Below, in pieces: positions 1 to 30,323 of a stretch of 64,000 nucleotides of DNA; position 1 is the stretch's first letter; every line of letters begins with the position of its first letter. The notes beneath the pieces were generated by a model. It searched no databases. It was not told the DNA's origin and saw only the letters and a program-made list of their open reading frames with translations. The stretch is from the IMG/VR virus record IMGVR_UViG_3300043446_005775, positions 1 through 64,000 of that record; one strand, given 5' to 3'. Source of the stretch: a virus. Made by a program: the position numbers and the translations under genes.

Positions 1-4
1 CCCA

Positions 5-11957: not shown

Positions 11958-12242
11958 ATGGCAATCACAAAGAAAAACGACCAGTTTTACTATGATTATG
12001 AAGAAGACGACGACGAAGGCGACTCATCGCAAACATGGGTTCCCATCGAGAAACTCAGGGGCCGTCATCGCCGACAAGCACTTCAGGAATTGCATAGAGG
12101 TCGATTTGCCAATGTCAGGAATATCGATGCCGAGGAAGCGGAAAAAATGCTTACCTGGATGCGAAGGAAAAAGACGTTTTCCGACAAGGACATCAAGAGG
12201 GCCGAGCAAAAGCTTGCCGCAGAAAAGAAACTGTTTGGTTAA
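11958..12242 (+). CDS. Small hypothetical protein (94 aa), acidic N-terminus and basic C-terminus
   Basis: AAGGAG RBS; fills the gap between two giant genes. Confidence 0.75.
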   Translation: MAITKKNDQFYYDYEEDDDEGDSSQTWVPIEKLRGRHRRQALQELHRGRFANVRNIDAEEAEKMLTWMRRKKTFSDKDIKRAEQKLAAEKKLFG

Positions 12243-12262
12243 TCAAGCCCAAGGATATCTGA

Positions 12263-15200
12263 ATGAGTGACAACGAACCAGTGGCAACAGAAAGTGGCAC
12301 TTCGTATCTTGCATCTGATATCCATGCCTTGAGCAAAACCAATGATACAGCAGAAAGAAGCATTGGCGTACTTGTCGACAGGCCAGTTGACAGCAGTGCT
12401 GAGCCGCAAACTGATGCCCCTCCGCTGGCGTCAAGTGGAGTGGCATTCGTGCCACATGTCACACCCATGCAACCGAAGGGCCCCATCGGGAGTGAGCAAA
12501 TCGGCGGCAGCGCTGAAACCGATGCTCTCGTTCGCAAGTCGCCGATTGGTCGAGCTATTCAAAGAGCCATTGCAGACGGCGGCGGCGCTCAGGAGCGACC
12601 GCTCTCTGAAGCGAATGTTGCAGTTCCCGGAGGGTTCAAGTACGATGTCAATGGACAGCCAATACTTGTTCGGCCTTCGGGAACCGGACCTTTCACCGTC
12701 ACTCTTGGAGCGAACAGTCCAGCAGTTTCAGTAGCTGATCCGCACGGCGTGGCAGATGTAGCCGCGAGTCACTTGCAAAATGCAAGCATACAAAGGGCTG
12801 CTCCCACCATAGGGACAGCGGCAGATGTCGCAATTGGACAGCACCTGCAAAGACAAGATCATGCAGCGCAGCAGATGCGTCGAAGAAGTCGCAACGCGAC
12901 TGATGATTCAGAATCAGGAATCGGATTTAACGGCAGGGATGAGTTTGGCATCAAGACCATCGACAAGGTCCGATACCAGAGGCTTCTGGATAGAGAAGCC
13001 ACATCATGGAACACACCGCTGGATGCGGATTTTGATTTCGAATTTGTGCCCGGAAAGGGCGCTGATGCGCAAAAAGTCCTTTTGGATATAGTGCCTACAC
13101 GCGACAGTTCAGGGTCATACCTGAAGAAACAACAGCAGGCGGAGGCTTCGCTGCTTCGTCCTGAACGTGAAGCCGCAGAATTGGCATACGCAAGATATCA
13201 CGAGGAGAAAGGAAACCTGGGCTTCGTAGGGAAAATCAATGCCATGCGCAATGGAATCATTGACACGAGCAATGATTCACAAGAATCAGTATCTTATGCA
13301 ACGCACGACAGGACTGTGTACAGGGTTTTTTCGTTTGAAGACAAGGGAAAAAGGAAGGTCGTCATCCGGGAACCCATTATTCCGGGAGCGATAGGAGGCA
13401 CTCCTGCCGGGGAAGAGGCTAGCGTGGATACAGCTTCTGGAGTCCTTTTCCCAGCAGATATCAATCAGGACTTTTCAACGCTTTGGCAATTTCTTGACTC
13501 TCGTGACAACAAGAGAAGCGCAAAGTCAGAATCAATTCTCAGTGCATATGTAAACCGGGTCACAGAAATCGCCAAGGCAAGGTGGGAAGAACATATTGCC
13601 GGAAAAGAAGCAATCGCGGGTCGGCCTCCCATAGTCCAGGCAAGAGAAGGCCTTGTTGGAATAACTCGTGAATCAGGACTCAGTGGAGAGGCACATGCAG
13701 ATGCCGCTCTGGGCTCCGAAGACAGGAGGGGGCCAGATGACGAGGTCGCAGTTGCCAGGCGAATTGCCACACAAGCAGGCGAAGTCGCCCATCAAGCAAA
13801 CCTTAGGGAAATTGAAAACAAAGTTCCTTCAACAATGGATGATGATCATTTAGATGCAATTATTCCAGAATTGGCAGGCAGTTACACGCCGACGGCCCCG
13901 GTCATCGAGACTGATTGGCAAGCAGAAGCCGCATCGCTGTCGGCGGACAAAATCCAATCTGCCGCGGATGCAGTGGAGCGCGATCTGCTTAAGTCGCAAT
14001 CTGCTGTTTCCTCAAGCGAGATGAATGACACTTTTGAAGATGTGAATATTCCGGGATTGAAAAAACGCAGTGAATTTCCGTCACTTGCTGCGTATTTCCA
14101 GGCGGTGAACAAGCGGTACCGGCAAAGCAAAGACTCCGTAGAATTGTTCAATTTGAATATTCGTGTTTACAAGGCATTTATTGCCCAGAAAAATAGTCGA
14201 AGAATTGAAGCGTTCAGAAGATCAAAATTAAGCTTGCATCCGCTTGTGGAAGACAGTGCAAGAAGCGGAACGGCACGATTGCCTAATGTTTCAGCCACGC
14301 TGATGCAAATGGCTTCTTCCTCTTCAAAGGCAGACAATCTCGAAAGCATTGCCATGGCCATTCCAGCAGTGGCAACCGCGGGAATAATTGACGTTCTTCG
14401 CACACAGCAAGGCTCTTCCGACTTTCAAAAAGAGGCTGGCGCGGCAATTGCAAAAACCCTGACCGATTCTCTCGAATCCGCATTGAATCAGCGCCTGAGA
14501 GATGAGCATCTGATTGACAGGGCAGGGTTTGATACGGCGTTTCCTCAAATCGGCCTCAACAATTCCTCATCGGTGTTGTCAGGGTTCTTGAATGATACGC
14601 TGAAAGCCGCGATACCGCAGGATTCACTGGGTTTCAATGAGGAGTTCCGCACAAGGTTCTCAGATGAATATGAGAACAGGCTGAGAATCTCGCAGGCAGC
14701 TCTCTTGTCTGGCAATAAAGAAGCGATACAGGAAGCAAAAGATTCCATCTCTGAATTTGGGAAAAAAGAATTCGTCATGACCAAGGACGAAGAAAAGACT
14801 CTTAAAGCCATGCGAAAAAAGGGAAATTCCTTTATCTCCGATTGCATAGCATGGATGGAAAAAATTGGAAGAAGTGGCAAGCAATTCAAGCTACCGGGAA
14901 AAGACCCCGCAATTGTTTTATCGGAAGCGGCAGAGAAAGGCGACTTCGTAACAGTGTTGCGAGTCTTGGCGATGAATCTTGCCCCAAAGGAATATGTCAC
15001 TCTCAACCGCGATGACAACGCAAGAATGCCTATTGAGAAGCCATCAGAACAAGATCTGGCTGCAGCGAGGGAAAGAATTTTCCGCCTCGTTCATGATCTT
15101 TTGTCAAGTGATCAGTATGCAGACGATGTCAGAAAAGAAGTGCTTGCCACAGAGAATTATAATCTTTATCTACACACAGCAACTGGTCTTTCAGAGCTTG

Positions 15201-18200
15201 TTGGAATCGGTTTCTCAATGGCTGACAGGAAGACAAAGGAATGGCACTTTAGTCCTATCAGGTACATGGCAAACGCCGACATTATGAAGTTTGCAAATGA
15301 AAGAGCAAAAGTTGCCATTGAAAATGGCCTGCGGGGTGACTACCTCTCCAATTACGTACGCAATGCTCTTGCCAAGGAGTTCGATGGCGATCCACGCATC
15401 AGGGTGCCGGTGCTCCCCTCGCGTCGCCTAAACTCGGAGGGTAAGATCCACGTGGCTCTCTCTGTAGGAAATGAGGCGAAATCGATCAATATCGAATCCT
15501 ATGCTATGCAGGCAATACGGACAGTGCAGAAAGGGATTCAGGATCAATTAGAGAGGCACCTCAAGTCAGGAAAGTCACGTGAGACATTCAAGGGGGATTA
15601 TTCCAATCTTGGCTTGGATGAACCAAGAGCTCCGACAGGGTTGTTGCCAAAGCGATTGCCAGATGATGCCCCTGAGAAATTGAGGGATGACTGGCAGCAT
15701 GCGGCTGGGTTGTACAAGAAAAGCCAACGCGCGGAATATTACAAATCGCTTGACGCCAAAAGGCGAGCCGCGCTTGACATGTGCATTGGCAAAAACCCGG
15801 TGATTGATTCAGGTGATTTTGACTGGGGAAATGATGATCACAAGGCTTTGCTTGGAGATTGGCTATTTTCAAGATATCCGCAAGAGTCCTTGGGGAAACT
15901 CACGACGAGAAAAACGCAACAAGTCCCCGTTGCCGCGTACATGCAGCAATTTCTCCAGAATCCTGCTGATGGAGAATTGATCAGAAAGCTGGAGGCAGCC
16001 CTTGGAAACAAGCCTGTTGTCGTTGACAGGAAAACATTTGATCCCGCATTGAAGGCGAAGGCAACTCCTGAGATGCTGCTGGCAACCAATCCTCTTTGGT
16101 CCGCGTTTCTTTCGGCCAATGACCCGGAAAAATTGATCAATCATCCGTTTCAGCTTTCATTTTTCCATTCCATTTTTCAATCGGGATTGAAAAAAATAGA
16201 CGGACAATCATTGAAACCTGTTGAGGGAAGAACCAAATCAGCATTTGATGAGGAAGTAAATCGCATTGCAGGCTGGATAGAAGGCCAGCTGGGAAGAAGA
16301 GCAATTGAAGCGGGAGCTGCAGACAAGAAAATCAAAGCATCTGAAACTGTGTCCTTTTGGTCACAAAATGCTGTCTTGGCAGAACACACCGCGGCTTTCC
16401 TTTCTGCTGGAAACGAAGAATTAATCAAAGAGATAGAGAGGCAATTGCTTCAAAACCCTGGCGACCAGAAATTGCAGGACGATTTGAATGAACTGCAAAT
16501 AATCCAGGAAGATTCCGAGAAGGATCCAAGCAGAAAATCGATTAGATTCACACGTCGGCAGAGGGATGCCAACAACAACGACCTGGGAGCAGTTGCTCCA
16601 GATATGTTAGCCGATTATGTCCAGGCAAAATCCCGAATCATGCGCGACTACTCGCCTGTGAATGATTTGTCAACCCATCAGCCAATTCCCGTGGGAATTC
16701 TTGCGGGTATCGTCAAGGACTCTTTGCTGAGGTCACGCAATCCATCCGATTTCATTCTTGACTTGTCTCCGGCAATACCAAGAGATTCACAGGCAACTTC
16801 ACTGGCAGCCATCGATTCCGTTGCCGCAGATGTGCAAAAAGAAATAGATCAGAGAAAATCACAACAGGAGCTTGAGCAATCAGCAATGGGGCCAGCGAGC
16901 CTTGTTCCAGTAACCGAATCGTCAGTGCGGGAAATCATGAGTGAATCAAAGAAAAAGGGAATCATTCCAATAGGAAGATCAAGTCATGCATATCCGGCAA
17001 CGCTCAGGGGGAATCATGGAAAATCCAAGGAATTCCCTGTGATCTATACGTATGGATTCAGCGAATTGGTGGAATCTCCCAGCATTGTGCATTTGATTAG
17101 CGATCCCATTGCTGCTTCCGCAGGAGCTCAGTACGGAGCAATTAGTTCATTGGGGGATGTGCAAAATGCAATAAGGACTGTCAGCGACTCACTCGGATCA
17201 ATCGATGGCATGGATAGCGAAGCGCCGCTTCTTACCAGAAAACAGCACATTGACATGCATGTCACTACGTGGATGCAAAAATTGCAGACTTCTGAAAATT
17301 TCGGAGAGATTGACAACATAATCAGGGAACTGAACAAAGTTGACCAAAACCAACAACTTGACCTTTCTGACATGTATAGTTCTGATTGGACAAAGAAATT
17401 TTCAAAACTGCTAGAGAGATATTGCCAATCCAACGCCATAGCAATGATCACACCGGCTGATTCCGCTTACCCGCCATACCTGCTCAAGAGCCCCGGACGA
17501 AGACAATCCGGTGATGACGATCCTACTCCCTACACGCCCTCCGTGTTGTTTGTGAAAGGAAATCCACGCGCATTCCAACAAGTGCGCGATAATTCCGAGA
17601 GGGTTGTAACATGCATTGGCGTTGGAGAAGGAAAGACACACGGCGAGGATGTAGAGCACGGAAATGCCGTTTCTCAAAAAGCATGCGAAGTTGTCACGCG
17701 CCTTTCTTCGGCGTTCAAAGACAAGTCGTGGACTATTGTTACTTCATTGACTGGAGGCACAAACGATGCCATTCTTCAAACTGCGTTGCGATGGCAAATG
17801 CCAACAATTATCGTCGCTCCCTTTGGATTCAACACTTCTGCCGAATTGGGCTCATTTGGCCCAAGATTCAAGGATGCAAAGAGCAGGCTAAATGATGCAT
17901 TGGACAAAAACGCCGTTGTCATGACGGAATGCTTGCCTGGAATGGGAATGCAGAGACCAAAAAATGGGGCAGGCAGGGATTCTGTTCGCGAACATCAGCG
18001 CTTGCTCGCGGAACTGTCTTCTGCGACGATTGTCATTTCGGCGACTGGCACTCGCAATTGGGTTCAGACAGAAGGACAACGGAAAGGAATAAGTCCTGAG
18101 TATCTCGCCGCGATGATTGACGGATCGAGCGTGTCGAAGGTATTGAACGCCAAAGTTGAGGATTCCATCCCGATCTATGTTGCGCAACAGGCCGCAAGGC

Positions 18201-21200
18201 AAAAGAGGGCAGTGTTCGTCTTGCGTCCTGACACAATTGTCAACCATGAAGCAGCCATGGCGGAAGGAAGAATGAGCGGAAATGTGCAGCTTACGTCATC
18301 TTCGATCAGGAATGTCTTTTTCCTTGATACCGATGATCCAAAAAAGCAGCTTGAAAAATACATCAGCAAAGCGCCAATAGACATACCTCCTGTGAGCAAA
18401 GCGCAATCCGCCGTGGAAGACATTCTGAATGTGGCGCAAATGAGCAGGCCGCAAGGCATGACCGACGAGGAATTTCTCGGCACATTGTCAAATGTCTTGG
18501 TGGCGAAGAATGCAAGGATGATTGCCACTACGCGTCATTGGCTATCAGGAATCAAAGCGCAAAGGAATCCTGACGGAAGCCCTGTTTCGGTATTGATTGA
18601 TTCTCCAGATACCGACGATGCAAGCTTGCGAAATCTGCTTCTTGCAAAGGAAATGGGAGTTCACACAGTCGTTGTTCCCAGTCAAGCCATCTATTCGAGA
18701 ACAAGGATGCCGGATGAATACGAAATCACAGAAGAAGGCCCTGTGCTGAAGAAATTGAATTCACTCGATGACTGGGCTCCTCTCAAAAACAACGACAGGC
18801 TTTCTGGAACAAGCCTCATAGAACTGACATTTCGCGCAGACAACACGTCATCGGATCCGTATAGATTGGCTTTTGAGACGCCGGAGCTGGCGTTTGCGGC
18901 GACGAGGTTTTCAACAAGGGCTGACAGGGAGGCGCTTGCCGGACTATCCAATGATGACAGGCACTACAGGCAGAAATTAGCCAAGATACGAAAGGCAGAG
19001 CGAGAAAACAAGCTTTCCGCCATTCGTCCCGAGCAAGCAATCAAGGAAATGTATGAAATCCTGAGGCAAAAATTCAACTCGGAAACCTACAGGACCATAT
19101 TGATGCATACTGGAACCGCAGATATTGTGCACGGAAGCGATGGGGAAGATTTCTGGGGAGTTCCAAATTTCATGTCTTTATCAAAAACATCATTGATCAA
19201 GACTGGCATTGGGAACAACATGCTTGGAAAACTCCTGATGCATATCCGTTCTTTCATTAGTGCCTATCCTTCGAGCCGCCTTCCCAAGACTCTTTCTGAT
19301 GATTCCTGCCAAAGAATGCTGGATGGCGGAAGAAAACGAGACGAAACGATGGCGTGGCATGAGGCGCTTGGCCTCATGGGGCTTTCAGACAGGGACATCA
19401 CCCTTGCTCCAACCGTGCAAAGAGCCGTGGAGCCATTGAAGACCAAGGAGTTGCGCATAGGAATCACCGGCTCACGGGATCTCGATGGCTTGCTTACCGA
19501 AGACATGGTCAGGCATGCCCTTGAGCGGTCCATCAAGATCGCTCGCCCCGGCCCGAAGACCATTTCACCGCAGGCCGGGGCAGATCCCGCAAAGAAGCGC
19601 TCTGCGTGGGAAATGGCACATGGCATTGACATAGCGAATCCGGGACAAGCCAGTGATGCATTGTACACGGCTCATTCCATCGTTCATGGCGGAGCTGCTG
19701 GAGTCGATTCCGTTGCTGCTGCATATTTTCGCGATCATAATTTTACGAATGTCACAGCAATTCCCTATGAAGAACTCTCGACAAAGGAGGATAATTTTCA
19801 CAGGAAAGATCGCACTGCAGGACACAGGAGAAACACCAAGATCGTTGCAGATTGTGATGTATTGGTTGCAATCTGGGATGGGAAAAGTGCTGGCACATTA
19901 GACGCAATCATGAAAGGCATACGAATGCAAAAACGCATGCTGATCTGGACGCCGGATGGCAAAGGCGGGTTGGCCCTTCAGAAAATAAATCCGGCCGAAA
20001 AAGGAACCATAACATTGTCAACGCCCTTTTCCCCTGTTGTCAAGGAAGGTTCCGCAATACATGATTATCATCATGCTGGAGCAAATGTTGCCAGCTCGGA
20101 AGCACGTGCGTTTGCAGAAAAACTTAGAACCGCATCGCTTGTCTTGGGCCTGCATCATTCTTCCCGGTACGCTCAAGGATTGTATAGGGATTCAAGGACG
20201 ATTGGCGCACAAAAACCGATCATCGTTCTTGGCGGAGGCCAATCGCATCTGTCGGAAGGTTCTGCGGACGACCAGAAACGTGCAGACAGTGAGCTCCTCG
20301 GGTTCTTCCCTGCAGACCAGAAGTTGACGGAAGGACTCATTTACAAGGGTCGCCTCAATGGGGAATGGAATAATTATCATCATGTTTCTGATCCGGACAG
20401 TTATGCCGCTCTTGGATATCAATCAACAAGGAATGCAGACTCATTTGCAGCAAGCAATACTGCTGCGTCAAGGGCATTGCAGGAAGTGATTAACGCCAGA
20501 ACACGTTCCGGATATTCAAATCTCACAAGATCCCAGTTGGCAGCAGGCTTGGGCGCACTCTTGGGGCTTGGTAGCGCAACAGCGTCGCAAGAGGATGTTA
20601 AATCGCATAGAATTAGCGATATCGACACGCAGATACTTGAGACAAGGCTTAATCCGCTTCTTGACGACGCCGAAAAACTGGAGAAGGTCAGAAGCCTTGA
20701 GGAAGAAAAGCAGAAAATTATCAATGAAGTGCCATCTCGGACGGTAGCATTGGCAAAAAGCGAGGATGGTCAGCGCGGATTGCAAGCCATGGGACATGGC
20801 GCACATCGATCCATTCCTTATGCGGAAGAGGTCGCGCCATCGAATCATCAGTATGCCGAAACCGCAGTCGTCTCAAGCGAAGCAATCCCGCACATATATG
20901 CATCAATAAGTATTTCCATGGCTCCCAGCAAGAAGAAAACAAACGTTATCGATTCAACCATTCATGTGATGCTTTATCACAGGGATGGACAAGATGATCC
21001 CATACCAGTGCAAAGCATGGTATACCACATTCCTGATTCTCCACTTGTAACCACGCTTGCGCAACCATCGGACGAGAGCGCCCATACCCGGGGAACAAAA
21101 TCCGGAAGGTGGCTGGATGGATATGGCAACTACCGGCGGATCATTCGCATGCTTTCCGGAGATTTGGCAAAGGATTTGCTGGCCAGATATCATGCTGGAT

Positions 21201-24200
21201 CAATTCACCAGGAAGTGAGGGCAATCACGAGAACCCGGGATGTTGCCAACAACATTCCGGGAAGAGGTGTCGGCATTCCATTGCAAATTGCGCCGCAATC
21301 GGATGCGTTAACGAGTCTGCAAAGGCAAACATCGGCCACACCATCCGTGCATGCGTTTGATCCGGATTCAGTAGACTTGAAAAGAGTGAGCAATGGAGAT
21401 CAATTATCAAAAGATGCGGTTGACAGAGGGAGGCCCAGAATAATAAGCCAGGAGCAGATAAATGCCTATGTCGGGCAATGCAGGGCACGGCGAAGCTGGC
21501 CTCCCGTTTCAGAAGCAAGGATTTCTCAACGGCAACGCGAAGACACGAGAGCAAGCACATTCAATCCCCGGTATCAATTCACCCCCAATGTGAGGAAAGG
21601 GGACAAATTATCTCCATTATTTACCTCGTGGACCGTCCTTGGTGGAGAGACGACAAAATTTGAGGCAAAACGTGTCGCGCAGGACAGTCTTCGTTCAGCG
21701 TACGGACAATCTCAAGCAACACTTGCGGAAAGATCAGCCATTCAAAATGCTGATGGAACATTCAAGGTCAGTGCGAACCCCCAGAAACCGACAACCACTG
21801 CACTTGCACTATTTGGTCCGGCAACACGGATGGTCAGGGGTGCCCCCATTGATCGAGAGACTGGAGGGAACGAGCCTTACAACATCAATATCCTTGCCCT
21901 GCTTGGCGGAAGTCCGTTACATGTGTCCCCAGGAACTGGCCATTCGCCAATAGTTCCCAATGATGCCGTTCATCCCGAATATGCGTATGTCGCCGGAGGG
22001 AACCTTTCATCAGCAATCACCGACTTGTTGAAAATTCCCGAGCAGGGGAAGATCACCCTTGACGGATACTCGGATGCAGCATTATGTGTCGACCTTCAGC
22101 AGTATTTGCAACTTTCCCCAAAAGAGTCCTTGACACGCAAGCAACTGGAGCCTATCGTTGAGGATCTTCTCCGTCGACGCATCGGAGGAAGAAAGGCGCT
22201 GGATCAATTGGATTACGGACGACCAGTTGATAACCTAGCCTTGGTTGCCGGAGTGGGCGCTCCCATGTCAATACCCGCGCAATGGGACCGGTTGCGAGAT
22301 TCATTGTTCTATCTTGGAAAAAGAACGGCATTTTCTGAAGATGCTCCACGCGCAGTGATCGATGAGAATCTTCAGCAAGCAATGAGAAAATCAAGATTGA
22401 AGGTTGCAACAGGCTTGGAATTGCTTGCCTCGCTGGTTGTTGAAAGGGCCAATGGGAAAAGTGCATCACCGTTGGGCGCGGGAAAGACGACGACAATGCA
22501 AGACTACCTGCGTCGTTTCCTTCCTCCGGGCGCCACAACTTTCGACGATGATGCGCTCGCACGAAAAAACCTTGATGAGCATATTCAGGAGACCATGAAA
22601 ATGTTCGTGTTCCTGAGAAGTATCGACTCCGGATCCGATGCTTCTCAGATGCGAATATTCCAGCAAGGCAGCGGAAAAACCGCAGTTGAGCCGCTTGTGA
22701 AAAACCTCAGGAACGCGCTCTCGATCACATCAACGGACAATAGCAGAAAAATCATCTCGCAAATGGGATATCTTGCCTCAGCAATGGATGTCATGAATTC
22801 AATGAACGTGGACTTCAATCACGAGGACAAGATTTCACCAGAATCAACCATAGCAAAGATCTTTTCCCCATCATCGGCAAGCTCATCTGGAAAAACAAAG
22901 CTAATCATTGTTCCCGGATCAGTTTGGCAAGCAAAAACTATTCCAGGAGCAAATTTCTATGATCAAGGCAGGAATGAATTGTCTCCTCCGGAAAGAATGA
23001 ATCTCCTCGCAAACGTGATTGTTTGCTCAAGGAACGAGGAAATAAACAAGATCTTCCTTGGCATTACCGCAGGAACTGACAAGCAAACCCAGGCAGGATC
23101 CTTGAGCGAAATTCTTGACAAAGGCCAGAAAGGCGTTAGCGTCCCTGAAGGAGATGACCATTATGTCTACATAGGATGTCCATTAGGAGAGGATATCGGA
23201 GAAAACGTGTTGCATTTCGATGAAACAAAATCTGCGGAGTACAAGGCAAGCGTAGCGTTGGCCATGGCTCACGCGGCAAACATCAAGGCTGGGCGCAAGG
23301 CTGGCGTGGGCATCAACCTTGCAAGCGACGACGACAGGTTCAGGACCCTCCAGCAAAACAATGTTGATAAATTCAACCGGATTGCCAGCATGGCGCTGAA
23401 TGCCGCAAATGGTACACTTTCCGCAGATCATGCCATACGAGAGCGCCAGGTCCGCGCTCTCGTATGGGCCACACTGTATGTTGATGGGGTGCATGACGAA
23501 AAACGCAAGCGGCAGACCGCGGAACCTGACAGCCCCGTGCTGGTATACGCTCCTGAAGAATCCCTGATCGGCCGCTATGTCGGAGAAGACGGGAACGGTA
23601 TCATCACTCCTGTCGAGCGCACCAACTGGATGGAAAGCCTGTCTGATCTTCGCAATATCGTATTGGGGAACATGGGCATCAAGAGGCCAGCGACAGTCAT
23701 CAGCTTGTCAACCATTGCTCCTCCTGCTCCCGAAGTGGAAGAGACGCCTGCGGGAACAATCGCTGCACCGGCCTCCGTTGGTCAGCGAAGCAGAAAGGAG
23801 GAACTTATCAGGGAGGTTGATGATCTCAAGGCAGAATTGGGAGATCAGGCTCCGAAACCAGTAACATTTGGCGGACGTGCCGGAGACATGGGGGTCGGGG
23901 TCAATTCCCTGCAAGCGGAATTGACGCGAAGACTTGTCGCCGCGCAAGACGAGCTTTCCACGCTTGTGATGGACGGCCTTTCCTCAGAAGGAGAAAAAAA
24001 AGCCGCCGATGCAAAGAGGGAAGAATTCGAAGAGGCGAGGAAAGCATACGAGCAAGCCGCCGAGGCAAGGAGGGAGTCTTCGGCCCCCGAGATGGTAATC
24101 ACTGGTTTCCGGTCTGAATTGTCGAACTGGTCTGTCGAGAATCCGGACATATTCCCAACATTCACGTATGTGAACGACAAGGGGGAACAAAAGCCTTTTA

Positions 24201-25723
24201 TTGTTCCCCACGGTGCTGCACAATTTGAACTTTTTTTCGGTTCCGGAGCATTTAGTGTTTCACCGGAAAACATTGAAACCAGAATGCGTGAAGGAATGGA
24301 ATTTGTGGAGGCTGCAAAAAGACTGATAAGGGAGCATTCTCAATTGCCAAGAGGCAACAACAGCGACGAAAGCAATGAATTTGCCCGGATGCTCGCCAAG
24401 AATTCATTTCGCATTCCAGGAAGCAGCACACAGCAATTCGTTAATTACCAGACCTATCTGGAGGCGATTGCGGGTTGGCAATCTGCAGCAAAAGCGGACA
24501 CAGTGGAAAACCGACGATCATACATGAGGATGATCCGGGATCTTGCCATAATCGAAGAACAATCCGCGCAACAGAAAATGATCGCTGCATATGGAGATCA
24601 TTCAGAGCCAGCAATAACGAGAGCCTTGGAAGATCGTCAGAAATACATTGATGCTGCATCAGCGCTGAATGCCGTCATTGATTCCATGAGCGCCTCGCAA
24701 AAACTCATTTGCAGGCAACCGGAAAAAATTCCATTGGCAGACCAATCATCAGCTGTCCCGGTTGAGCTCATGCAATCAAAGGAGTACGATCATCTCAAGG
24801 ATGTCGCGAAGGAACTCAAGGACAAGATGGGTGGGACAACATTCCGGTTGAATCCGTATGAGTTGAATCTGATCCTCACGCAACATGACCCGGCAAATAC
24901 GATTGGCAACGTCCTGTTGCGAGGTACCCTGTTTTCAAAAGGCGCTCCGTTGATTCATTATTTGCAGTCTGTATCCCTGGAGAGCGATGTACTCTATTCG
25001 CCTCTCGCACAAGCATTCAGGATTTCAAGATACTTCACCGTGAACGATCTGATTACCGTATTGACTGACTTACGAAAGGCCCTAACTGCCGAAAAGAAGA
25101 AAAGCGATCCCGATTCCGAAAGAATTGACAAGCTGACATCACAAATTCACCGGGCGACCGGAATGCTCAACGCCGCAGCACATCCATGTGACGACAATGA
25201 CAAGGAGACACTGTTTGGCGCGTTTGACAGATTCTATGCGGAGGCGTCCAGAGCGTTTGCCCTGCTGCTTGGAAACCGGAGCAGGAAACTTGAAGACATG
25301 GAAAACATATGGAAAAATAGCCAGGGAAATCCGATAGGCACATTGCGTTTCTGGCGTGACCAGTTCATGTTCGTGAACGACAGTGAACGCATTTCCGGCC
25401 AAATAGAGGTTGAAACCAACGGCAACGTTCGTCCAGCTCCTTCATACGAGTGGACACAGGCGAAAGAGTGGGTTCCCCTCAAGAAAACATCCTTTCAGGA
25501 ATGGATACGAAGAATATCCCCTGATATTCAAAGTCAGAACACTACTGATCAGCGCATTCAGGACTTCAACTTGCTCCGAGGAAAATTCCCAGATATTGCA
25601 AAATCACTTTCTTCGATATACAAAATGCCGTATTTCGCAAAGTCCCGGCGATTGCCCAAGGTCCGAAAGAAACGCACAGGTCTCCTCCTTCGTTCTTATG
25701 ATAAAATAACATACAGAGCATGA
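12263..25723 (+). CDS. Giant (4486 aa) polyvalent protein with DprA-type SLOG, NADAR and YspA-type SLOG domains
   Basis: Uninterrupted 13.4 kb ORF with AAGGA upstream; three recognisable domains cluster at 17.4-20 kb and the remainder is unassigned. Confidence 0.9.
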   Translation: MSDNEPVATESGTSYLASDIHALSKTNDTAERSIGVLVDRPVDSSAEPQTDAPPLASSGVAFVPHVTPMQPKGPIGSEQIGGSAETDALVRKSPIGRAIQRAIADGGGAQERPLSEANVAVPGGFKYDVNGQPILVRPSGTGPFTVTLGANSPAVSVADPHGVADVAASHLQNASIQRAAPTIGTAADVAIGQHLQRQDHAAQQMRRRSRNATDDSESGIGFNGRDEFGIKTIDKVRYQRLLDREATSWNTPLDADFDFEFVPGKGADAQKVLLDIVPTRDSSGSYLKKQQQAEASLLRPEREAAELAYARYHEEKGNLGFVGKINAMRNGIIDTSNDSQESVSYATHDRTVYRVFSFEDKGKRKVVIREPIIPGAIGGTPAGEEASVDTASGVLFPADINQDFSTLWQFLDSRDNKRSAKSESILSAYVNRVTEIAKARWEEHIAGKEAIAGRPPIVQAREGLVGITRESGLSGEAHADAALGSEDRRGPDDEVAVARRIATQAGEVAHQANLREIENKVPSTMDDDHLDAIIPELAGSYTPTAPVIETDWQAEAASLSADKIQSAADAVERDLLKSQSAVSSSEMNDTFEDVNIPGLKKRSEFPSLAAYFQAVNKRYRQSKDSVELFNLNIRVYKAFIAQKNSRRIEAFRRSKLSLHPLVEDSARSGTARLPNVSATLMQMASSSSKADNLESIAMAIPAVATAGIIDVLRTQQGSSDFQKEAGAAIAKTLTDSLESALNQRLRDEHLIDRAGFDTAFPQIGLNNSSSVLSGFLNDTLKAAIPQDSLGFNEEFRTRFSDEYENRLRISQAALLSGNKEAIQEAKDSISEFGKKEFVMTKDEEKTLKAMRKKGNSFISDCIAWMEKIGRSGKQFKLPGKDPAIVLSEAAEKGDFVTVLRVLAMNLAPKEYVTLNRDDNARMPIEKPSEQDLAAARERIFRLVHDLLSSDQYADDVRKEVLATENYNLYLHTATGLSELVGIGFSMADRKTKEWHFSPIRYMANADIMKFANERAKVAIENGLRGDYLSNYVRNALAKEFDGDPRIRVPVLPSRRLNSEGKIHVALSVGNEAKSINIESYAMQAIRTVQKGIQDQLERHLKSGKSRETFKGDYSNLGLDEPRAPTGLLPKRLPDDAPEKLRDDWQHAAGLYKKSQRAEYYKSLDAKRRAALDMCIGKNPVIDSGDFDWGNDDHKALLGDWLFSRYPQESLGKLTTRKTQQVPVAAYMQQFLQNPADGELIRKLEAALGNKPVVVDRKTFDPALKAKATPEMLLATNPLWSAFLSANDPEKLINHPFQLSFFHSIFQSGLKKIDGQSLKPVEGRTKSAFDEEVNRIAGWIEGQLGRRAIEAGAADKKIKASETVSFWSQNAVLAEHTAAFLSAGNEELIKEIERQLLQNPGDQKLQDDLNELQIIQEDSEKDPSRKSIRFTRRQRDANNNDLGAVAPDMLADYVQAKSRIMRDYSPVNDLSTHQPIPVGILAGIVKDSLLRSRNPSDFILDLSPAIPRDSQATSLAAIDSVAADVQKEIDQRKSQQELEQSAMGPASLVPVTESSVREIMSESKKKGIIPIGRSSHAYPATLRGNHGKSKEFPVIYTYGFSELVESPSIVHLISDPIAASAGAQYGAISSLGDVQNAIRTVSDSLGSIDGMDSEAPLLTRKQHIDMHVTTWMQKLQTSENFGEIDNIIRELNKVDQNQQLDLSDMYSSDWTKKFSKLLERYCQSNAIAMITPADSAYPPYLLKSPGRRQSGDDDPTPYTPSVLFVKGNPRAFQQVRDNSERVVTCIGVGEGKTHGEDVEHGNAVSQKACEVVTRLSSAFKDKSWTIVTSLTGGTNDAILQTALRWQMPTIIVAPFGFNTSAELGSFGPRFKDAKSRLNDALDKNAVVMTECLPGMGMQRPKNGAGRDSVREHQRLLAELSSATIVISATGTRNWVQTEGQRKGISPEYLAAMIDGSSVSKVLNAKVEDSIPIYVAQQAARQKRAVFVLRPDTIVNHEAAMAEGRMSGNVQLTSSSIRNVFFLDTDDPKKQLEKYISKAPIDIPPVSKAQSAVEDILNVAQMSRPQGMTDEEFLGTLSNVLVAKNARMIATTRHWLSGIKAQRNPDGSPVSVLIDSPDTDDASLRNLLLAKEMGVHTVVVPSQAIYSRTRMPDEYEITEEGPVLKKLNSLDDWAPLKNNDRLSGTSLIELTFRADNTSSDPYRLAFETPELAFAATRFSTRADREALAGLSNDDRHYRQKLAKIRKAERENKLSAIRPEQAIKEMYEILRQKFNSETYRTILMHTGTADIVHGSDGEDFWGVPNFMSLSKTSLIKTGIGNNMLGKLLMHIRSFISAYPSSRLPKTLSDDSCQRMLDGGRKRDETMAWHEALGLMGLSDRDITLAPTVQRAVEPLKTKELRIGITGSRDLDGLLTEDMVRHALERSIKIARPGPKTISPQAGADPAKKRSAWEMAHGIDIANPGQASDALYTAHSIVHGGAAGVDSVAAAYFRDHNFTNVTAIPYEELSTKEDNFHRKDRTAGHRRNTKIVADCDVLVAIWDGKSAGTLDAIMKGIRMQKRMLIWTPDGKGGLALQKINPAEKGTITLSTPFSPVVKEGSAIHDYHHAGANVASSEARAFAEKLRTASLVLGLHHSSRYAQGLYRDSRTIGAQKPIIVLGGGQSHLSEGSADDQKRADSELLGFFPADQKLTEGLIYKGRLNGEWNNYHHVSDPDSYAALGYQSTRNADSFAASNTAASRALQEVINARTRSGYSNLTRSQLAAGLGALLGLGSATASQEDVKSHRISDIDTQILETRLNPLLDDAEKLEKVRSLEEEKQKIINEVPSRTVALAKSEDGQRGLQAMGHGAHRSIPYAEEVAPSNHQYAETAVVSSEAIPHIYASISISMAPSKKKTNVIDSTIHVMLYHRDGQDDPIPVQSMVYHIPDSPLVTTLAQPSDESAHTRGTKSGRWLDGYGNYRRIIRMLSGDLAKDLLARYHAGSIHQEVRAITRTRDVANNIPGRGVGIPLQIAPQSDALTSLQRQTSATPSVHAFDPDSVDLKRVSNGDQLSKDAVDRGRPRIISQEQINAYVGQCRARRSWPPVSEARISQRQREDTRASTFNPRYQFTPNVRKGDKLSPLFTSWTVLGGETTKFEAKRVAQDSLRSAYGQSQATLAERSAIQNADGTFKVSANPQKPTTTALALFGPATRMVRGAPIDRETGGNEPYNINILALLGGSPLHVSPGTGHSPIVPNDAVHPEYAYVAGGNLSSAITDLLKIPEQGKITLDGYSDAALCVDLQQYLQLSPKESLTRKQLEPIVEDLLRRRIGGRKALDQLDYGRPVDNLALVAGVGAPMSIPAQWDRLRDSLFYLGKRTAFSEDAPRAVIDENLQQAMRKSRLKVATGLELLASLVVERANGKSASPLGAGKTTTMQDYLRRFLPPGATTFDDDALARKNLDEHIQETMKMFVFLRSIDSGSDASQMRIFQQGSGKTAVEPLVKNLRNALSITSTDNSRKIISQMGYLASAMDVMNSMNVDFNHEDKISPESTIAKIFSPSSASSSGKTKLIIVPGSVWQAKTIPGANFYDQGRNELSPPERMNLLANVIVCSRNEEINKIFLGITAGTDKQTQAGSLSEILDKGQKGVSVPEGDDHYVYIGCPLGEDIGENVLHFDETKSAEYKASVALAMAHAANIKAGRKAGVGINLASDDDRFRTLQQNNVDKFNRIASMALNAANGTLSADHAIRERQVRALVWATLYVDGVHDEKRKRQTAEPDSPVLVYAPEESLIGRYVGEDGNGIITPVERTNWMESLSDLRNIVLGNMGIKRPATVISLSTIAPPAPEVEETPAGTIAAPASVGQRSRKEELIREVDDLKAELGDQAPKPVTFGGRAGDMGVGVNSLQAELTRRLVAAQDELSTLVMDGLSSEGEKKAADAKREEFEEARKAYEQAAEARRESSAPEMVITGFRSELSNWSVENPDIFPTFTYVNDKGEQKPFIVPHGAAQFELFFGSGAFSVSPENIETRMREGMEFVEAAKRLIREHSQLPRGNNSDESNEFARMLAKNSFRIPGSSTQQFVNYQTYLEAIAGWQSAAKADTVENRRSYMRMIRDLAIIEEQSAQQKMIAAYGDHSEPAITRALEDRQKYIDAASALNAVIDSMSASQKLICRQPEKIPLADQSSAVPVELMQSKEYDHLKDVAKELKDKMGGTTFRLNPYELNLILTQHDPANTIGNVLLRGTLFSKGAPLIHYLQSVSLESDVLYSPLAQAFRISRYFTVNDLITVLTDLRKALTAEKKKSDPDSERIDKLTSQIHRATGMLNAAAHPCDDNDKETLFGAFDRFYAEASRAFALLLGNRSRKLEDMENIWKNSQGNPIGTLRFWRDQFMFVNDSERISGQIEVETNGNVRPAPSYEWTQAKEWVPLKKTSFQEWIRRISPDIQSQNTTDQRIQDFNLLRGKFPDIAKSLSSIYKMPYFAKSRRLPKVRKKRTGLLLRSYDKITYRA
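17432..18330 (+). other. DprA/Smf-type SLOG Rossmannoid domain (divergent)
   Basis: ITPADSAYPPYL..PSVLFVKGN..TCIGVG..WTIVTSLTGGTN..TIIVAPFG..VMTECLPG..RLLAELSSATIVI..AARQKRAVFV..GNVQL follows the DprA motif order (D..YP..L, LF..G, IVSGLA.GID, SE.PPG, RNRII..LS, GR.VF, G.N.L) with several substitutions. Confidence 0.8.
18790..19258 (+). other. NADAR (YbiA-like) domain
   Basis: FETPELAFAATRF..MYEILRQKF..ILMHTG..EDFWG..GNNMLGKLLMHIR matches the NADAR signature (T.EH.FQA.KF, KF, L..TG, D..WG, G.N.LG.LLM..R). Confidence 0.9.
19451..19950 (+). other. YspA/DUF2493-type SLOG domain
   Basis: IGITGSR..IVHGGAAGVDSVA..AGHRRNTKIVADCDVLVAIWDGKSAGT, a canonical SLOG motif set. Confidence 0.92.
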
Positions 25724-25726
25724 CAG

Positions 25727-26392
25727 ATGAGCAACAAGGAATTAGGCAGCAAAGGATATGGTCACTGGATGTTCCTTCCCGGAGGGCAGCTGTCTTATGT
25801 GGGAGGAGCAATGACCGCACTTCACCCTCATTATGAAATCAGGAAGACAAAGCACAAAGTCAAGAAAATAACAAAAGCCAAGATGCATGAACTGGAATCA
25901 AATCATGATCACCAGATGATCATCGTTGGGGACAGCAGCGTTCCTCACAATGATCTTCTCGGATTGACTGAGGCGATCAAGAAAATATTGCGATCAAGCA
26001 TGAATATAAAAAGGGGATCTTCCAGGCATGGAGATGAGCATGACATGGCATTTGGAAGCACATCCATCTTTGCCAACACAAGCAGGGACGCAGACGGCAT
26101 GAATTTCGTCATCATTGATGGAAACGGACACCCGGTCATGGTTACCAGGCGCGAAAGCAATCATCGTGATCCAACAGCTTCGTTGCTTAACGATGTTGCC
26201 GAATATCTTGCGCACGAACACCACAGACTTGCATGGCACATTCATGACAAGGATGACAATGAGATAAACGGCGCACCTGATCACATATTGCCAAACATGT
26301 CTGCGTTGCGTTGCTGGCCAGTGCATGCGTCACAGATGATTTTTCGCTGTCCACCGCTGATCGACACGGATCCCGAGGAAAGCGATGAATAG
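25727..26392 (+). CDS. His-rich hypothetical protein (221 aa)
   Basis: Tightly packed: 3 nt after the previous stop and overlapping the next start. Confidence 0.75.
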   Translation: MSNKELGSKGYGHWMFLPGGQLSYVGGAMTALHPHYEIRKTKHKVKKITKAKMHELESNHDHQMIIVGDSSVPHNDLLGLTEAIKKILRSSMNIKRGSSRHGDEHDMAFGSTSIFANTSRDADGMNFVIIDGNGHPVMVTRRESNHRDPTASLLNDVAEYLAHEHHRLAWHIHDKDDNEINGAPDHILPNMSALRCWPVHASQMIFRCPPLIDTDPEESDE

Positions 26393-29300: not shown

Positions 29301-30323
29301 GAGATTCTTTATCATGTCTATCGTTGCGACACGGATTTCCTCGGCAATTACCAGACAGCGGCAAGCATTCGCAGGGATGCCGGGAAACCGCTTCTCGATG
29401 CTGGCGACATACTGGATCGCGCGATCCAGTATATCACGTCAAGTACGCTGTCAAAGGTCTCTCTTCAAAGAAAGAGAGTCTCAAGGACATTCCAGGATGT
29501 GGGAACTTTCTGGTCTGATATTGCCCCCAAGGATACCAACTCGGAGAAAGTCATCAGGTCGCTAAGAATTGGTAGCGACTATGAAATTTCATCCCGACCG
29601 ATAAACAGAACCGCATTCTCGCCTGAATATCTCCTGAAGGCAGAGGCAATCATCAAGGATGTGAACAAGAATACCGATGCGTCATTTGCCAGAGCCTTTG
29701 GGATGTCCTATGATGGAAACACGGGAAGGATAGCGCGGTGCTTCCACTGGGCAAGCATCGATACGGTGCAGACCATATTCCTTGAGGGGATGATGCCATA
29801 CGCATCCATTGATGGAAGAAGCATTTACGCTTCGGTCAACTCTGCATCGCCGCTTCCTGTTCCGCTCTATAACGATGATTACGTGGCTCTTGTCGTCTTC
29901 GATTACCATTGTGGCAATATCATCTCAAAGAAATCCCTTGAGCTCCTCAGCAAGCAATACGTGCAGTGGAAGAAAGCGAAATTGGGAACGTCCGTGTTTT
30001 CCCTGAGCCGCGATGAAAATGACTTGATTGATAACGCAAAAGTGGGGCTTGACCTCGGCTATGCATCCTCCCTTGATTCTCATGCAGGGAAAAAGATACT
30101 TTGCTGCTTCGACACAAACAGGATTGCGCTCATCACGGCAATGGCCGTTCCGATGAAAGTCGCGACAAAAGACCTGTCGCCAAGCTTCAAAGGCTCTCCC
30201 CTGGATTTTTATGGTCGCGCCCATACTGGTCAATTCCGCAAGATCGCCTTGCCTGAATTGTCCTATGAAGATTTGAAAATAGAAGAAGCGAATGATCTTT
30301 GGTTAGGTGACATCAATGAATGA
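26385..30323 (+). CDS. 1312 aa protein with HD phosphohydrolase domain and C-terminal degenerate PARP-like ART fold
   Basis: HD domain (28920-29335): IVDH..LAMLLHDVGR..GHAHYSA..IYHHD..CD. ART-like region (29730-30135): CFHWAS..VQTIFLEG..DGRSIYAS..VVFDYHCG..LGYASS..CCFDTNRI. Confidence 0.85.
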   Translation: MNRIVKSIIEISDLPDDEESDSSKKQPASDYHHLWSKNTAAFMGIPIDEILPDCVSTSDKIAAMDRSFMNEFHGILSQSRQSFQMIDLLGKKILSYSKLYCYAGKKILRADDMRMMIDVFARSFGPEEMKTLAKLMRTTYKGIKREMDSLRVSKKLDFPYRHPSLSIHEDSIYPHGQGSYGQSHSWVYGKQSYVEYTNIMAKPEGKAIHPFLLIEMHLSKTGNNGLSVESGIIGQSFSIDGSGNIEKNTSNTLSYAWQDYLEEHMKSTSSWAQSTSKDGIKKASIEIAHPKVGIPWFSAVETSMDSQLMFDTEKNMQIFLGKRKKIGHLTYADTANDDAESRSRRLLEFLGRYIASEIVAYGYASHAGMSTPHCCEVPPNGNPWLSFRVSGRISSVPSISTGQSAYPDNYLSLPNDSEDQTNGYSPMRVDWTQFQKETYHIVVQPSVTRFMHDAFNYHVDVRILPNGSGAAVVLFSDSFNFIDEMRVTMPDPDRATVIGQVALANAVGIRNSPTYDDLGCKVLPVPIALSEQRTASRSSFSVGAELSVFESMPRDFISYHINSASTVMYKTSDMSQLRGNITNALKMFNTRTIDQNNLSSFISWNDFGSYCGEHFIENFNDSFMKSAHAYFTPASLQSLLKSMQQYFSAHQLNDFGIHDIPEVKEKNENTFVSLSPKTLLKTSSLSNGLSYAVYLVRHVPHQSVTESMIPIEKTMFNSLFSFYMTCVNPNGHEICVYQPSFNMKAGNYPRYASLADIVCGYFPDFICWMTNEGLRLHKSSQISSASYARIAEMHKVDPASVAKDIEMPFSPDASMISGQKEIVRRWITYHFPSLAIINQGGPRKGGSIVDHLMESALAVDTPRGKDNYSPSESLNDENVARLLRLAMLLHDVGRSFPSEGGVGPVEKGHAHYSAALARTILSQFYLKEREIAAIEKWIYHHDIFEKAVMGAYGTIDEASLHIAKIAETIDDAEILYHVYRCDTDFLGNYQTAASIRRDAGKPLLDAGDILDRAIQYITSSTLSKVSLQRKRVSRTFQDVGTFWSDIAPKDTNSEKVIRSLRIGSDYEISSRPINRTAFSPEYLLKAEAIIKDVNKNTDASFARAFGMSYDGNTGRIARCFHWASIDTVQTIFLEGMMPYASIDGRSIYASVNSASPLPVPLYNDDYVALVVFDYHCGNIISKKSLELLSKQYVQWKKAKLGTSVFSLSRDENDLIDNAKVGLDLGYASSLDSHAGKKILCCFDTNRIALITAMAVPMKVATKDLSPSFKGSPLDFYGRAHTGQFRKIALPELSYEDLKIEEANDLWLGDINE

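What the first reader, a model, noticed from the sequence alone, without database searches (positions are those of the whole stretch)
17432..19950. SLOG-NADAR-SLOG cassette inside a 4486 aa phage protein: possible injected anti-defence module
Seen: DprA-type SLOG, NADAR and YspA-type SLOG in tandem. NADAR keeps the acidic residues of TPE and DFWG, although the usual EH reads EL. Known: NADAR enzymes reverse guanine ADP-ribosylation by DarT1 toxins, SLOG domains bind nucleotides including the ADPR-derived Thoeris signal in ThsA, and SLOG-NADAR fusions are known in small proteins. Inference: a virion-delivered unit that erases DNA ADP-ribosylation and/or sequesters NAD-derived immune signals.
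Basis: partly seen in the sequence, partly recalled or inferred. Interest (0 to 1): 0.82.

Follow-up and report, generated by a model that had tools for sequence, protein, structure and literature searches.

The report
ADP-ribose enzyme cassette in giant phage protein
A 4,486-residue protein encoded just upstream of the head genes of an uncultured freshwater phage really does hold three nucleotide/ADP-ribose-type domains in a row, probably a counter-defence tool; the strategy has already been predicted and partly demonstrated in other phages, so this is a new carrier, not a new principle.

Summary
The 4,486-aa ORF (12263-25723) contains three domains:
- A DprA/ShosA-type SLOG domain, aa ~1695-2040.
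- A NADAR domain, aa ~2161-2338.
- A YAcAr/DUF2493-type SLOG domain, aa ~2393-2570.

Each is supported by HMMs, by an orthologue in a related phage record (G001), and by AlphaFold models matched to solved structures.

The three domains are not equally intact:
- The second SLOG keeps all 18 family-defining residues.
- The NADAR keeps the catalytic Glu, the WG and the GxGxN...R motifs. It has Arg for the phosphate-binding Lys and His at the second acid position (the phage type).
- The DprA-like domain has lost its Gly-rich loop and its RNR motif. It keeps 19 of 43 conserved positions, against 31 of 43 in G001.

G001 is collinear with this window. Its virion core genes are 60-90% identical, but the giant is only about 30%, and the cassette holds its best-conserved stretches.

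Virion delivery and enzyme activity remain inferred. Stoichiometric signal sequestration by an injected protein is implausible.

SLOG+NADAR fusions, head-packaged NADARs and anti-DarT1 phage NADARs are already published. This scan has also noted NADAR+SLOG cassettes in giant virion proteins on other DNA.

Verdict: a real feature and a new variant of a known kind, of moderate interest.

The parts
12263..25723 (+). Giant ORF of 4,486 aa (P0001) that carries the cassette. The other ~3,600 aa match no known family.
   Evidence: It is collinear at about 30% identity with the 4,272-aa ORF of G001/L002. The N- and C-terminal parts give no tblastn hit in cultured phages. No DxDGD or HExxH motif is present.
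17345..18382 (+). DprA/ShosA-type SLOG domain, aa ~1695-2040, degenerate in this phage.
   Evidence: Sequence: Pfam DNA_processg_A 27.4 bits and PADLOC ShosA 4.2e-7; the orthologue scores 100.6 bits. Fold: Foldseek gives ShosA 2.7e-11 and DprA 3.3e-10; VIA gives Z 21-22. Motifs: SGMAKGID reads TSLTGGTN (aa 1827-1834), RNR reads HQR (aa 1911-1913) and GxR reads GEG. It keeps 19 of 43 conserved DprA positions, against 31 of 43 in the orthologue.
18383..18742 (+). Conserved segment of unknown fold between the DprA-like and NADAR domains, aa ~2041-2160. It includes a small beta-alpha-beta unit and the motif T[RK]MxDEY.
   Evidence: aa 2101-2200 is the best-conserved 100-aa stretch of the giant (49% identity to G001). 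For model secondary structure. The Atlas search found nothing. hhalign against the SLOG profile was not significant (probability 2.6%).
18743..19276 (+). NADAR domain, aa ~2161-2338. Key residues: E2208 (catalytic Glu), R2215 (in place of Lys), H2290 (in place of the second acid), E2295/D2296-F-W2298-G, and GxGxN...LLMxIR.
   Evidence: Pfam 40.2 and 46.4 bits, above the 35.1-bit cut-off. A profile of this clade hits YbiA 2b3w at 2.1e-30 and PnNADAR 8bau at 7e-16. Fold Z 10.4 and 8.5. E, H, W, G, N and R are invariant among the three giant homologues.
19277..19438 (+). Low-confidence linker, aa ~2339-2392.
   Evidence: pLDDT is below 50 in the model, and identity to G001 is 24%.
19439..19972 (+). 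YAcAr/DUF2493-type SLOG domain, aa ~2393-2570, with an insert of about 60 aa after strand 1. Motifs: GSR (aa 2403-2405), GGAxGxD (2476-2482), RRN (2522-2524) and WDGKSAGT (2538-2545).
   Evidence: phrog_289 at 4e-11. Hundreds of small YAcAr proteins are hit. All 18 family-conserved residues are kept. Fold: Z 13.0 to YpsA, 11.7 to ShosA and 9.3 to the ThsA SLOG. BFVD hits are YspA/DUF2493 viral proteins. Identity to G001 is 46%.

Best explanation
The cassette is the best-conserved part of a fast-evolving 'polyvalent' accessory protein of a freshwater myovirus.

The protein is most likely made together with the head proteins, carried in the capsid, and released into the cell with the DNA. All of this is inferred from context.

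Proposed roles of the parts:
- NADAR domain: the probable catalytic element. It would be an N-glycosidase that removes ADP-ribose from guanine in (phage) ssDNA, as DarG1 and AdfN do, or that cleaves a soluble ADP-ribose derivative.
- Adjacent YAcAr SLOG domain: its nucleotide-binding loops are fully intact. It most likely binds, and possibly processes, an ADP-ribose-derived nucleotide. That would make it a second enzyme or a ligand sensor for the module, not a sponge.
- DprA/ShosA-type domain: ancestrally it would have tethered the module to ssDNA, which is the substrate of DarT. In this phage it has lost the canonical pocket and is probably decaying or repurposed.

Shown here: domain identities, folds, residue conservation, synteny, the rate contrast between the giant and the virion core, and purifying selection.

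Inferred: packaging, injection, substrates and targets.
For: - Domains and folds.
- NADAR active site: the catalytic Glu, His, WG and GxGxN...R residues are invariant across the three giant homologues and align with functional NADARs, including the AdfN-Bas32-type protein bas33_0070.
- Second SLOG: keeps 18 of 18 family-conserved residues.
- Context: the giant lies in one same-strand block with the protease, major head protein, sheath and baseplate lysozyme. Its neighbours look like other conflict-type proteins: a UvrD-containing giant, an HD protein, a pentapeptide-repeat protein and a Vsr-like nuclease.
- Rate contrast: G001 is collinear, with virion genes 60-90% identical but the giants 27-31%. 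The cassette islands reach 35-49%. This is the pattern expected of an arms-race protein with a constrained functional core.
- Selection: the cassette recurs at about 99.8% identity in freshwater metagenomes from several studies. Of 8 SNPs, 6 are synonymous.
- Literature: phage NADARs neutralise DarTG1 (PMC11825919). Head-associated NADAR, Macro and Nudix proteins and SLOG+NADAR fusions have been predicted to act early against NAD/ADPr-based immunity (PMC9503650, PMC7824862). The polyvalent injected-protein concept is set out in PMC5512222.
Against: - There is no direct evidence of packaging. No MuF, ART-PolyVal or peptidase hallmark was found. No homologue exists in a cultured phage with a virion proteome.
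- The Lys that is essential for efficient ADPr-guanine hydrolysis is Arg here. In E. coli C7 NADAR, K95R is active in vitro but fails to rescue cells (PMC11543638). The orthologue has Leu at this position, so canonical ADPr-phosphate binding is not conserved in this clade.
- The N-terminal LSN motif reads LSG.
- The DprA-like domain has lost its Gly-rich loop and RNR motif.
- No host is known, so no target system is known.
- The model pLDDT values are only 68-70, and the alignments supplied for folding contained family members.
Confidence: 0.5

Rival explanations
1. The giant is not packaged. It is an accessory protein expressed inside the cell, and it merely sits next to the head module. Its NADAR and SLOG domains act in the cytoplasm after synthesis, like T4 AdfN or the T5-like NADARs.
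For: All experimentally studied phage NADARs are small cytoplasmic proteins encoded among early or metabolic genes (PMC11825919). One example is bas33_0070, which lies next to thymidylate synthase and RNase H. No packaging hallmark domain was found here. The -10-like TATACT motif upstream of the giant is a generic sigma-70-like element.
Against: The gene order, with the giants directly upstream of and co-oriented with the head genes, is conserved in G001. A 13.5-kb gene is slow to express, which makes it poorly suited to a response that must precede DarT action; this point is my inference. The same TATACT motif occurs upstream of structural genes.
Confidence: 0.2
2. The domains are relics. The giant is a bulky internal head or ejection protein whose enzyme-derived domains now serve only as structural filler or spacers.
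For: The DprA-like domain has lost 24 of 43 conserved positions, including its whole Gly-rich loop. The NADAR Lys is not conserved (R here, L in the orthologue). The protein overall diverges very fast.
Against: The NADAR catalytic Glu and the WG and GxGxN motifs, and all 18 SLOG signature residues, are retained across lineages that are only about 30% identical elsewhere. The SNP pattern is mostly synonymous.
Confidence: 0.15
3. The cassette is a DNA-entry, recombination or repair module. The DprA-like domain, together with the UvrD helicase of the neighbouring giant, protects or processes incoming or replicating ssDNA. NADAR and SLOG would serve NAD-dependent nucleic-acid repair rather than counter-defence.
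For: DprA and ShosA bind ssDNA and promote recombination (PMC11961720). Jumbo phages keep DprA homologues as possible ssDNA-binding proteins (PMC7824862). Giant 1 carries a UvrD helicase. NADARs are also linked to RNA-repair contexts (PMC9503650).
Against: The DprA ssDNA-pocket motifs are eroded here. No ligase, KptA or 2H partner was seen in the window. Fast divergence of the giants fits conflict better than housekeeping.
Confidence: 0.1
4. The cassette is a signal 'toggle'. The SLOG domain makes an ADPr-derived signal from NAD+ and the NADAR degrades it, so that the phage manipulates host physiology.
For: [quoted passage not shown]
Against: No biochemical precedent exists for signal synthesis by YAcAr domains. 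Nothing in my data distinguishes this reading from binding or hydrolysis.
Confidence: 0.05

Closest known systems
Polyvalent proteins of phages and conjugative elements (Iyer, Burroughs, Anand, de Souza, Aravind 2017, PMC5512222); archetype phage P1 DarB
   Same: It is a very large multidomain phage protein, encoded with late/head genes, that combines enzyme-like domains predicted to act at the start of infection. A neighbouring giant carries a UvrD-type helicase, a domain also noted in some polyvalent proteins.
   Different: That paper does not mention NADAR or SLOG domains (0 occurrences). None of its hallmark domains (MuF, ART-PolyVal, zincin peptidase, DarB methylase-helicase) was found here. 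Packaging is unproven.
Phage 'orphan antitoxin' NADARs (AdfN: T4 gp30.3, Bas32/33, Bas60; PMC11825919) and DarT1-associated NADAR antitoxins (PMC11543638)
   Same: It has the NADAR fold and the catalytic Glu. It has His at the second catalytic position, as described for phage NADARs. It is 33% identical to bas33_0070 over the domain.
   Different: The domain is embedded in a 4,486-aa protein rather than being a ~150-aa stand-alone protein. Lys is replaced by Arg, the LSN motif reads LSG, and there are two inserts. No activity data exist.
Small viral SLOG(YAcAr)+NADAR/Macro/DUF4326 fusions (PMC9503650, PMC7824862); examples P0005, P0007, P0014, P0137
   Same: The same two domain families are adjacent, and the sequences are detectably related (E 1e-13 to 1e-5).
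   Different: Those proteins are 275-600 aa and usually have two domains. Here the pair sits behind a DprA-type domain inside a giant protein. PMC9503650 describes the viral exemplars as 'typically standalone proteins'.
DprA and ShosA (the DprA-like type IV antitoxin of the ShosTA defence system; PDB 8zva, PMC11961720)
   Same: The fold match is Z 21-22 over about 230 residues. The orthologue in G001 is a clear DprA-family member at 100.6 bits.
   Different: In this phage the conserved Gly-rich loop, the GxR motif and the RNR motif are replaced. The domain has a ~40-aa insert and is not linked to a PRTase toxin.
NADAR+SLOG cassettes on giant virion proteins of crAss-like and N4-like phages
   Same: The same pair of domain families rides on a giant phage protein that is presumed to be injected.
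   Different: The carrier here is not a recognisable virion RNA polymerase (no DxDGD motif). The phage is a contractile-tailed freshwater virus, and a DprA-type domain is part of the block.

Membership tests
NADAR superfamily (PF08719) | Profile score above the curated cut-off | tested here: met
   40.2 bits and 46.4 bits, against a cut-off of 35.1. A profile of this clade hits YbiA at 2.1e-30.
NADAR superfamily (PF08719) | YbiA-like alpha+beta fold | tested here: met
   Z 10.4, rmsd 3.0, 134 residues aligned to 2b3w. Z 8.5 to 8bau. Model pLDDT is about 85-90 in the domain core.
NADAR superfamily (PF08719) | Catalytic Glu (EcC7 E88 / Pn E43 / T4 E36) | tested here: met
   E2208 aligns with this Glu. 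It is invariant in the three giants.
NADAR superfamily (PF08719) | Phosphate-binding Lys seven residues after the Glu (EcC7 K95 / Pn K50 / T4 K43) | tested here: not met
   The position is R2215 here and Leu in the G001 orthologue. K95R keeps in vitro activity but does not rescue cells (PMC11543638).
DarT1-associated NADAR antitoxin (DarG1) / AdfN function | Second catalytic acid (EcC7 D171) and hydrolysis of ADPr-guanine | not testable with these tools
   The position holds H2290, the state the paper describes for phage NADARs (PMC11543638). Activity needs a biochemical assay. No DarT gene is in the record, as expected for an orphan.
DprA / DNA_processg_A (PF02481, TIGR00732) | Profile score above the cut-off | tested here: not met
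   27.4 bits against 29.6, and TIGR00732 28 against 191. The orthologue P0004 passes with 100.6 bits, so homology holds by descent.
DprA / DNA_processg_A (PF02481, TIGR00732) | DprA-type extended Rossmann fold | tested here: met
   Z 22.4 (3uqz), 21.5 (3maj, 4ljk) and 21.4 (ShosA), against Z 12-14 for other SLOGs. Caveat: the folding alignment contained DprA homologues.
DprA / DNA_processg_A (PF02481, TIGR00732) | Conserved GxR, SGxAxGID and RNR motifs | tested here: not met
   They read GEG, TSLTGGTN and HQR. 19 of 43 conserved columns are kept.
YAcAr / DUF2493 SLOG family (PF10686) | Family signature residues (GSR, GGAxGxD, RN, WDGxSxGT) and similarity to members | tested here: met
   All 18 invariant or near-invariant columns are kept. 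Hundreds of small family members are hit by phmmer. phrog_289 scores 4e-11. The short Pfam model itself scores only 14.2 bits against 28.2.
YAcAr / DUF2493 SLOG family (PF10686) | SLOG Rossmannoid fold | tested here: met
   Z 13.0 to YpsA 2nx2 (135 residues aligned, rmsd 3.2), with Moco-carrier, DprA, LOG and ThsA SLOG structures at Z 9-12.
Polyvalent proteins (PMC5512222) | Several domains of disparate activity in one polypeptide of a phage or plasmid | tested here: met
   Three recognisable domains sit in a 4,486-aa phage protein. All three are nucleotide/ADPr-related, so 'disparate' holds only moderately.
Polyvalent proteins (PMC5512222) | Gene context with packaging/late genes | tested here: met
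   The gene is in the same-strand block as, and 12 kb upstream of, the head protease, major head protein and sheath. The arrangement is conserved in G001.
Polyvalent proteins (PMC5512222) | Carried in the virion and injected with the DNA | not testable with these tools
   The phage is uncultured and no proteome is available. There are no MuF or ART-PolyVal hallmarks.

The most novel reading that the evidence does not exclude
The giant is a pre-loaded string of 'orphan type IV antitoxin' look-alikes: a ShosA/DprA-like domain, a DarG1/AdfN-like NADAR, and a SLOG domain aimed at an ADPr-derived toxin or signal. It would be delivered with the genome so that toxin-antitoxin-type abortive-infection systems are neutralised before any phage gene is expressed. 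Those systems fire when host transcription stops and labile antitoxins decay. The rapid divergence of the carrier, and the decay of the DprA-like unit in one lineage, would record a changing set of host defences.
Probability: 0.15. Interest if true: 0.75.

Novelty: new variant of a known kind. Interest (0 to 1): 0.45.

Why it matters
If the NADAR and SLOG domains are active and the giant is injected, ADP-ribose-based defences (DarTG1, and possibly Thoeris-like signalling) could be countered by ready-made enzymes in the first seconds of infection. That would add a contractile-tailed freshwater phage lineage to the carriers of such kits.

The pair of related genomes also offers a natural experiment. 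The virion genes are 60-90% identical and the giant about 30%. One DprA-like domain is intact and the other eroded. This shows which cargo domains stay under selection.

The principle is already published, so the value lies in breadth and in testable constructs rather than in a new concept.

Tried and rejected
- tblastn of the cassette against cultured phages and plasmids at E 1e-5 found nothing. At E 0.1, only weak NADAR hits appeared.
- A phmmer search of the NADAR segment against PDB sequences found nothing. A profile was needed.
- The word-indexed homologue search with aa 2150-2600 (near lengths) found nothing.
- A viral-contig scan with the single protein found nothing. With an alignment, it found one giant relative plus small YAcAr genes. 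The metagenome scan returned only that same contig.
- A self-comparison of the giant showed no internal repeats.
- I tested whether the conserved middle segment (aa ~2041-2160) is an eroded SLOG. hhalign gave probability 2.6% and the Atlas search found nothing, so this is unsupported, though not excluded.
- I looked for a phage-encoded ART partner. There was no ART-PolyVal or DarT hit in the record. Pfam, PADLOC, NCBIfam and the Atlas found no ART in the 1,312-aa HD protein.
- I tested whether the giants are a virion RNA polymerase or a zincin. None of the four giants has a DxDGD or HExxH motif.
- No RNA holder is listed among the public runs, so expression could not be addressed.
- ORFs upstream of giant 1 in G001 have no family hits, so no terminase was located.

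Full report
**What is there.** The window is the first 64 kb of a 77-kb IMG/VR virus record that CheckV estimates at about 47% complete. ORF 12263..25723 (+) is an uninterrupted frame of 4,486 aa. It lies in a long same-strand block:
- A first giant of at least 3,965 aa with a UvrD helicase.
- A 94-aa ORF.
- The 4,486-aa giant.
- Proteins of 221, 1,312 (HD domain), 223, 1,848 (pentapeptide repeats) and 222 aa, then a Vsr/DUF559-like nuclease.
- The head and tail genes: prohead protease, major head protein, tail sheath, a VgrG3-like lysozyme and a tail lysin.

The virus is therefore a contractile-tailed phage. Its capsid and sheath proteins are only 25-35% identical to those of cultured phages.

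**The three domains.**

Pfam finds the following in the giant:
- NADAR, aa 2191-2331, 40.2 bits, above the cut-off.
- DNA_processg_A (DprA), aa 1721-1928, 27.4 bits, just under the cut-off.
- LDcluster4 and YAcAr, aa 2472-2562, weak.

PHROGs supports the NADAR (4e-12) and the second SLOG (4e-11).

An exhaustive phmmer search of 1.84 billion representative proteins with aa 1624-2662 gave 568 hits. Only two of them span the cassette:
- P0003, an 81%-identical fragment.
- P0004, 4,241 aa and 31-34% identical across the whole cassette.

P0004 scores 100.6 bits for DprA, 43.2 for NADAR and 32.1 for LDcluster4. The weak calls in our protein are therefore homologous to clear ones. Nearly all other listed hits are small (about 110-170 aa) YAcAr/DUF2493 proteins matching the third domain. 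A few are NADAR+YAcAr fusions of 275-600 aa.

AlphaFold models were built with alignments assembled from these hits, and reached pLDDT 68 and 70. Their fold matches were:
- DprA-like part: Z 22.4 to DprA 3uqz, Z 21.5 to 3maj and 4ljk, and Z 21.4 to ShosA 8zva. Generic SLOGs scored Z 12-14. Foldseek E-values were 2.7e-11 and 3.3e-10.
- NADAR: Z 10.4 to YbiA and Z 8.5 to the P. nicotianae NADAR.
- Third domain: Z 13.0 to YpsA. Moco-carrier, DprA, LOG and ThsA SLOG structures followed at Z 9-12.

In BFVD the best matches are viral 'YspA cpYpsA-related SLOG' and DUF2493 proteins.

**How intact are they?**

NADAR. Mapping onto the residues tested by Schuller et al. (PMC11543638) and Johannesman et al. 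(PMC11825919):
- The catalytic Glu is kept (E2208).
- The His after it is Leu, but that position varies among relatives.
- The phosphate-binding Lys is Arg (R2215). The G001 orthologue has Leu.
- The second catalytic position (Pn E125 / EcC7 D171) is His (H2290), the state the paper reports for phage NADARs.
- The acid-x-x-WG and GxGxN..LLMxxR motifs are kept.
- E, H, W, G, N and R are invariant among the three giant homologues.

I read this as a plausibly active, non-canonical NADAR. The variable Lys position is a real caveat.

Second SLOG. All 18 invariant or near-invariant family residues are present: GSR, GGAxGxD, RN and WDGxSxGT.

DprA-like domain. Only 19 of 43 positions conserved among 25 DprA homologues are kept here. 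The orthologue keeps 31 of 43.
- The Gly-rich loop SGMAKGID reads TSLTGGTN.
- RNR reads HQR.
- GxR reads GEG.

The canonical pocket is lost in this lineage.

A segment of about 120 aa between the DprA-like domain and the NADAR contains the best-conserved stretch of the whole giant. It has no assignable fold.

**Relatives and evolution.** The record holding P0004 (G001, 79.9 kb) is collinear with the window. Per-gene identities are:
- Putative portal-position gene 87%, protease 85%, major head protein 75-80%, sheath 64%.
- The two giants, only 27-28% by tblastn. MAFFT gives about 31%.
- The accessory proteins after them, 40-57%. The 1,848-aa protein aligns over only 18% of its length.

Within the giant, the second SLOG (46%), aa 2101-2200 (49%) and the NADAR (35%) stand above the roughly 30% background.

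The cassette DNA recurs at about 99.8% identity in freshwater and lake metagenomes from several studies. Of 8 SNPs in 3.1 kb, 6 are synonymous (one-sided binomial p about 0.02 for third-position excess). This is a small sample.

Together this shows a real, expressed-type gene with a constrained core inside a very fast-evolving carrier.

**Mechanism.** The best-supported reading is a polyvalent accessory protein that is co-encoded with the head genes and probably packaged.
- The NADAR would remove ADP-ribose from DNA guanines, or from a soluble ADPr derivative.
- The YAcAr SLOG would bind or process an ADPr-type nucleotide.
- The DprA-type unit would originally have targeted ssDNA, which is the DarT substrate.

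I give this about 0.5.

Sequestration of signals by an injected protein is unlikely. Such proteins arrive in few copies, while signals accumulate to many molecules (inference), so catalysis or sensing fits better.

The rivals are a non-packaged cytoplasmic protein (0.2), relic or structural domains (0.15), a DNA-entry/repair role (0.1) and a signal toggle (0.05).

**Comparison with the known.**
- Phage NADARs that neutralise DarTG1 are experimentally established (PMC11825919).
- SLOG+NADAR/Macro fusions, and head-associated NADAR, Macro and Nudix proteins, were predicted to counter NAD/ADPr immunity (PMC9503650, PMC7824862).
- The injected polyvalent-protein concept dates from 2017 (PMC5512222). 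That paper does not list NADAR or SLOG.
- PMC9503650 calls the viral exemplars 'typically standalone proteins'.
- This scan has already noted NADAR+SLOG cassettes on giant virion proteins of crAss- and N4-like phages on other DNA.

What is new here:
- The carrier: an unrecognisable 4.5-k-aa protein of a myovirus, with no RNA-polymerase or zincin motif and no MuF or ART-PolyVal domain.
- The DprA/ShosA-type partner domain.
- The natural contrast between an intact copy and an eroded copy in two related phages.

**Limits.**
- Packaging, injection, activity, ligand and host are all untested.
- The structure models are of moderate confidence and were guided by family alignments.
- No RNA data were available.

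Noticed in passing
window 11934, 45477, 52346, 53513 (+ strand): A -10-like hexamer, TATACT, is often preceded by TGn. Four of its seven + strand occurrences fall in the ~3% of the window that is intergenic. These four sit upstream of the small ORF before the giant and upstream of three structural-gene starts. TATACT occurs 12 times against 4.2 expected, and GRTATACT 6 times against 0.5. This may be a shared promoter type linking the giant to the virion genes.
   Followed up: partly
window 11958-12243 (+): An unlisted 94-aa ORF lies between the two giants. It is acidic at the N-terminus and basic at the C-terminus, and is 58% identical in G001. It has no family hit.
   Followed up: partly
window 2-11899 (+): The first giant (at least 3,965 aa here, 4,202 aa in G001) ends in a complete UvrD/PcrA-type helicase. 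Like the second giant, it is only about 28% identical between the two phages.
   Followed up: partly
window 30998-36544 (+): The 1,848-aa protein has a pentapeptide-repeat (DNA-mimic-type) domain. Only 18% of its length aligns with G001, which makes it the most variable gene of the block.
   Followed up: no
window 26385-30323 (+): The 1,312-aa protein has an HD domain (aa 880-966). Pfam, PADLOC, NCBIfam and the Atlas gave no support for the ADP-ribosyltransferase that another first-stage note suspected in its C-terminus. This does not exclude it.
   Followed up: partly
window ~45498-45542: An 11-bp perfect inverted repeat (TTGCCGGGAAC / GTTCCCGGCAA) followed by a T-rich run sits directly after the major head protein gene. 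It is a likely terminator or attenuator that sets capsid-protein stoichiometry.
   Followed up: no
L070 (G001) 1-4100: In the related record the rightward block begins after a strand switch near 3.1-3.4 kb. Two small genes then precede giant 1. The leftward genes have no family hits.
   Followed up: partly
window 39443-40818: ORFs 38043-39515, 39443-40195 and 40093-40818 overlap by 70-100 nt, just upstream of the prohead protease. I did not examine whether these are real overlaps, alternative starts or a frameshift.
   Followed up: no
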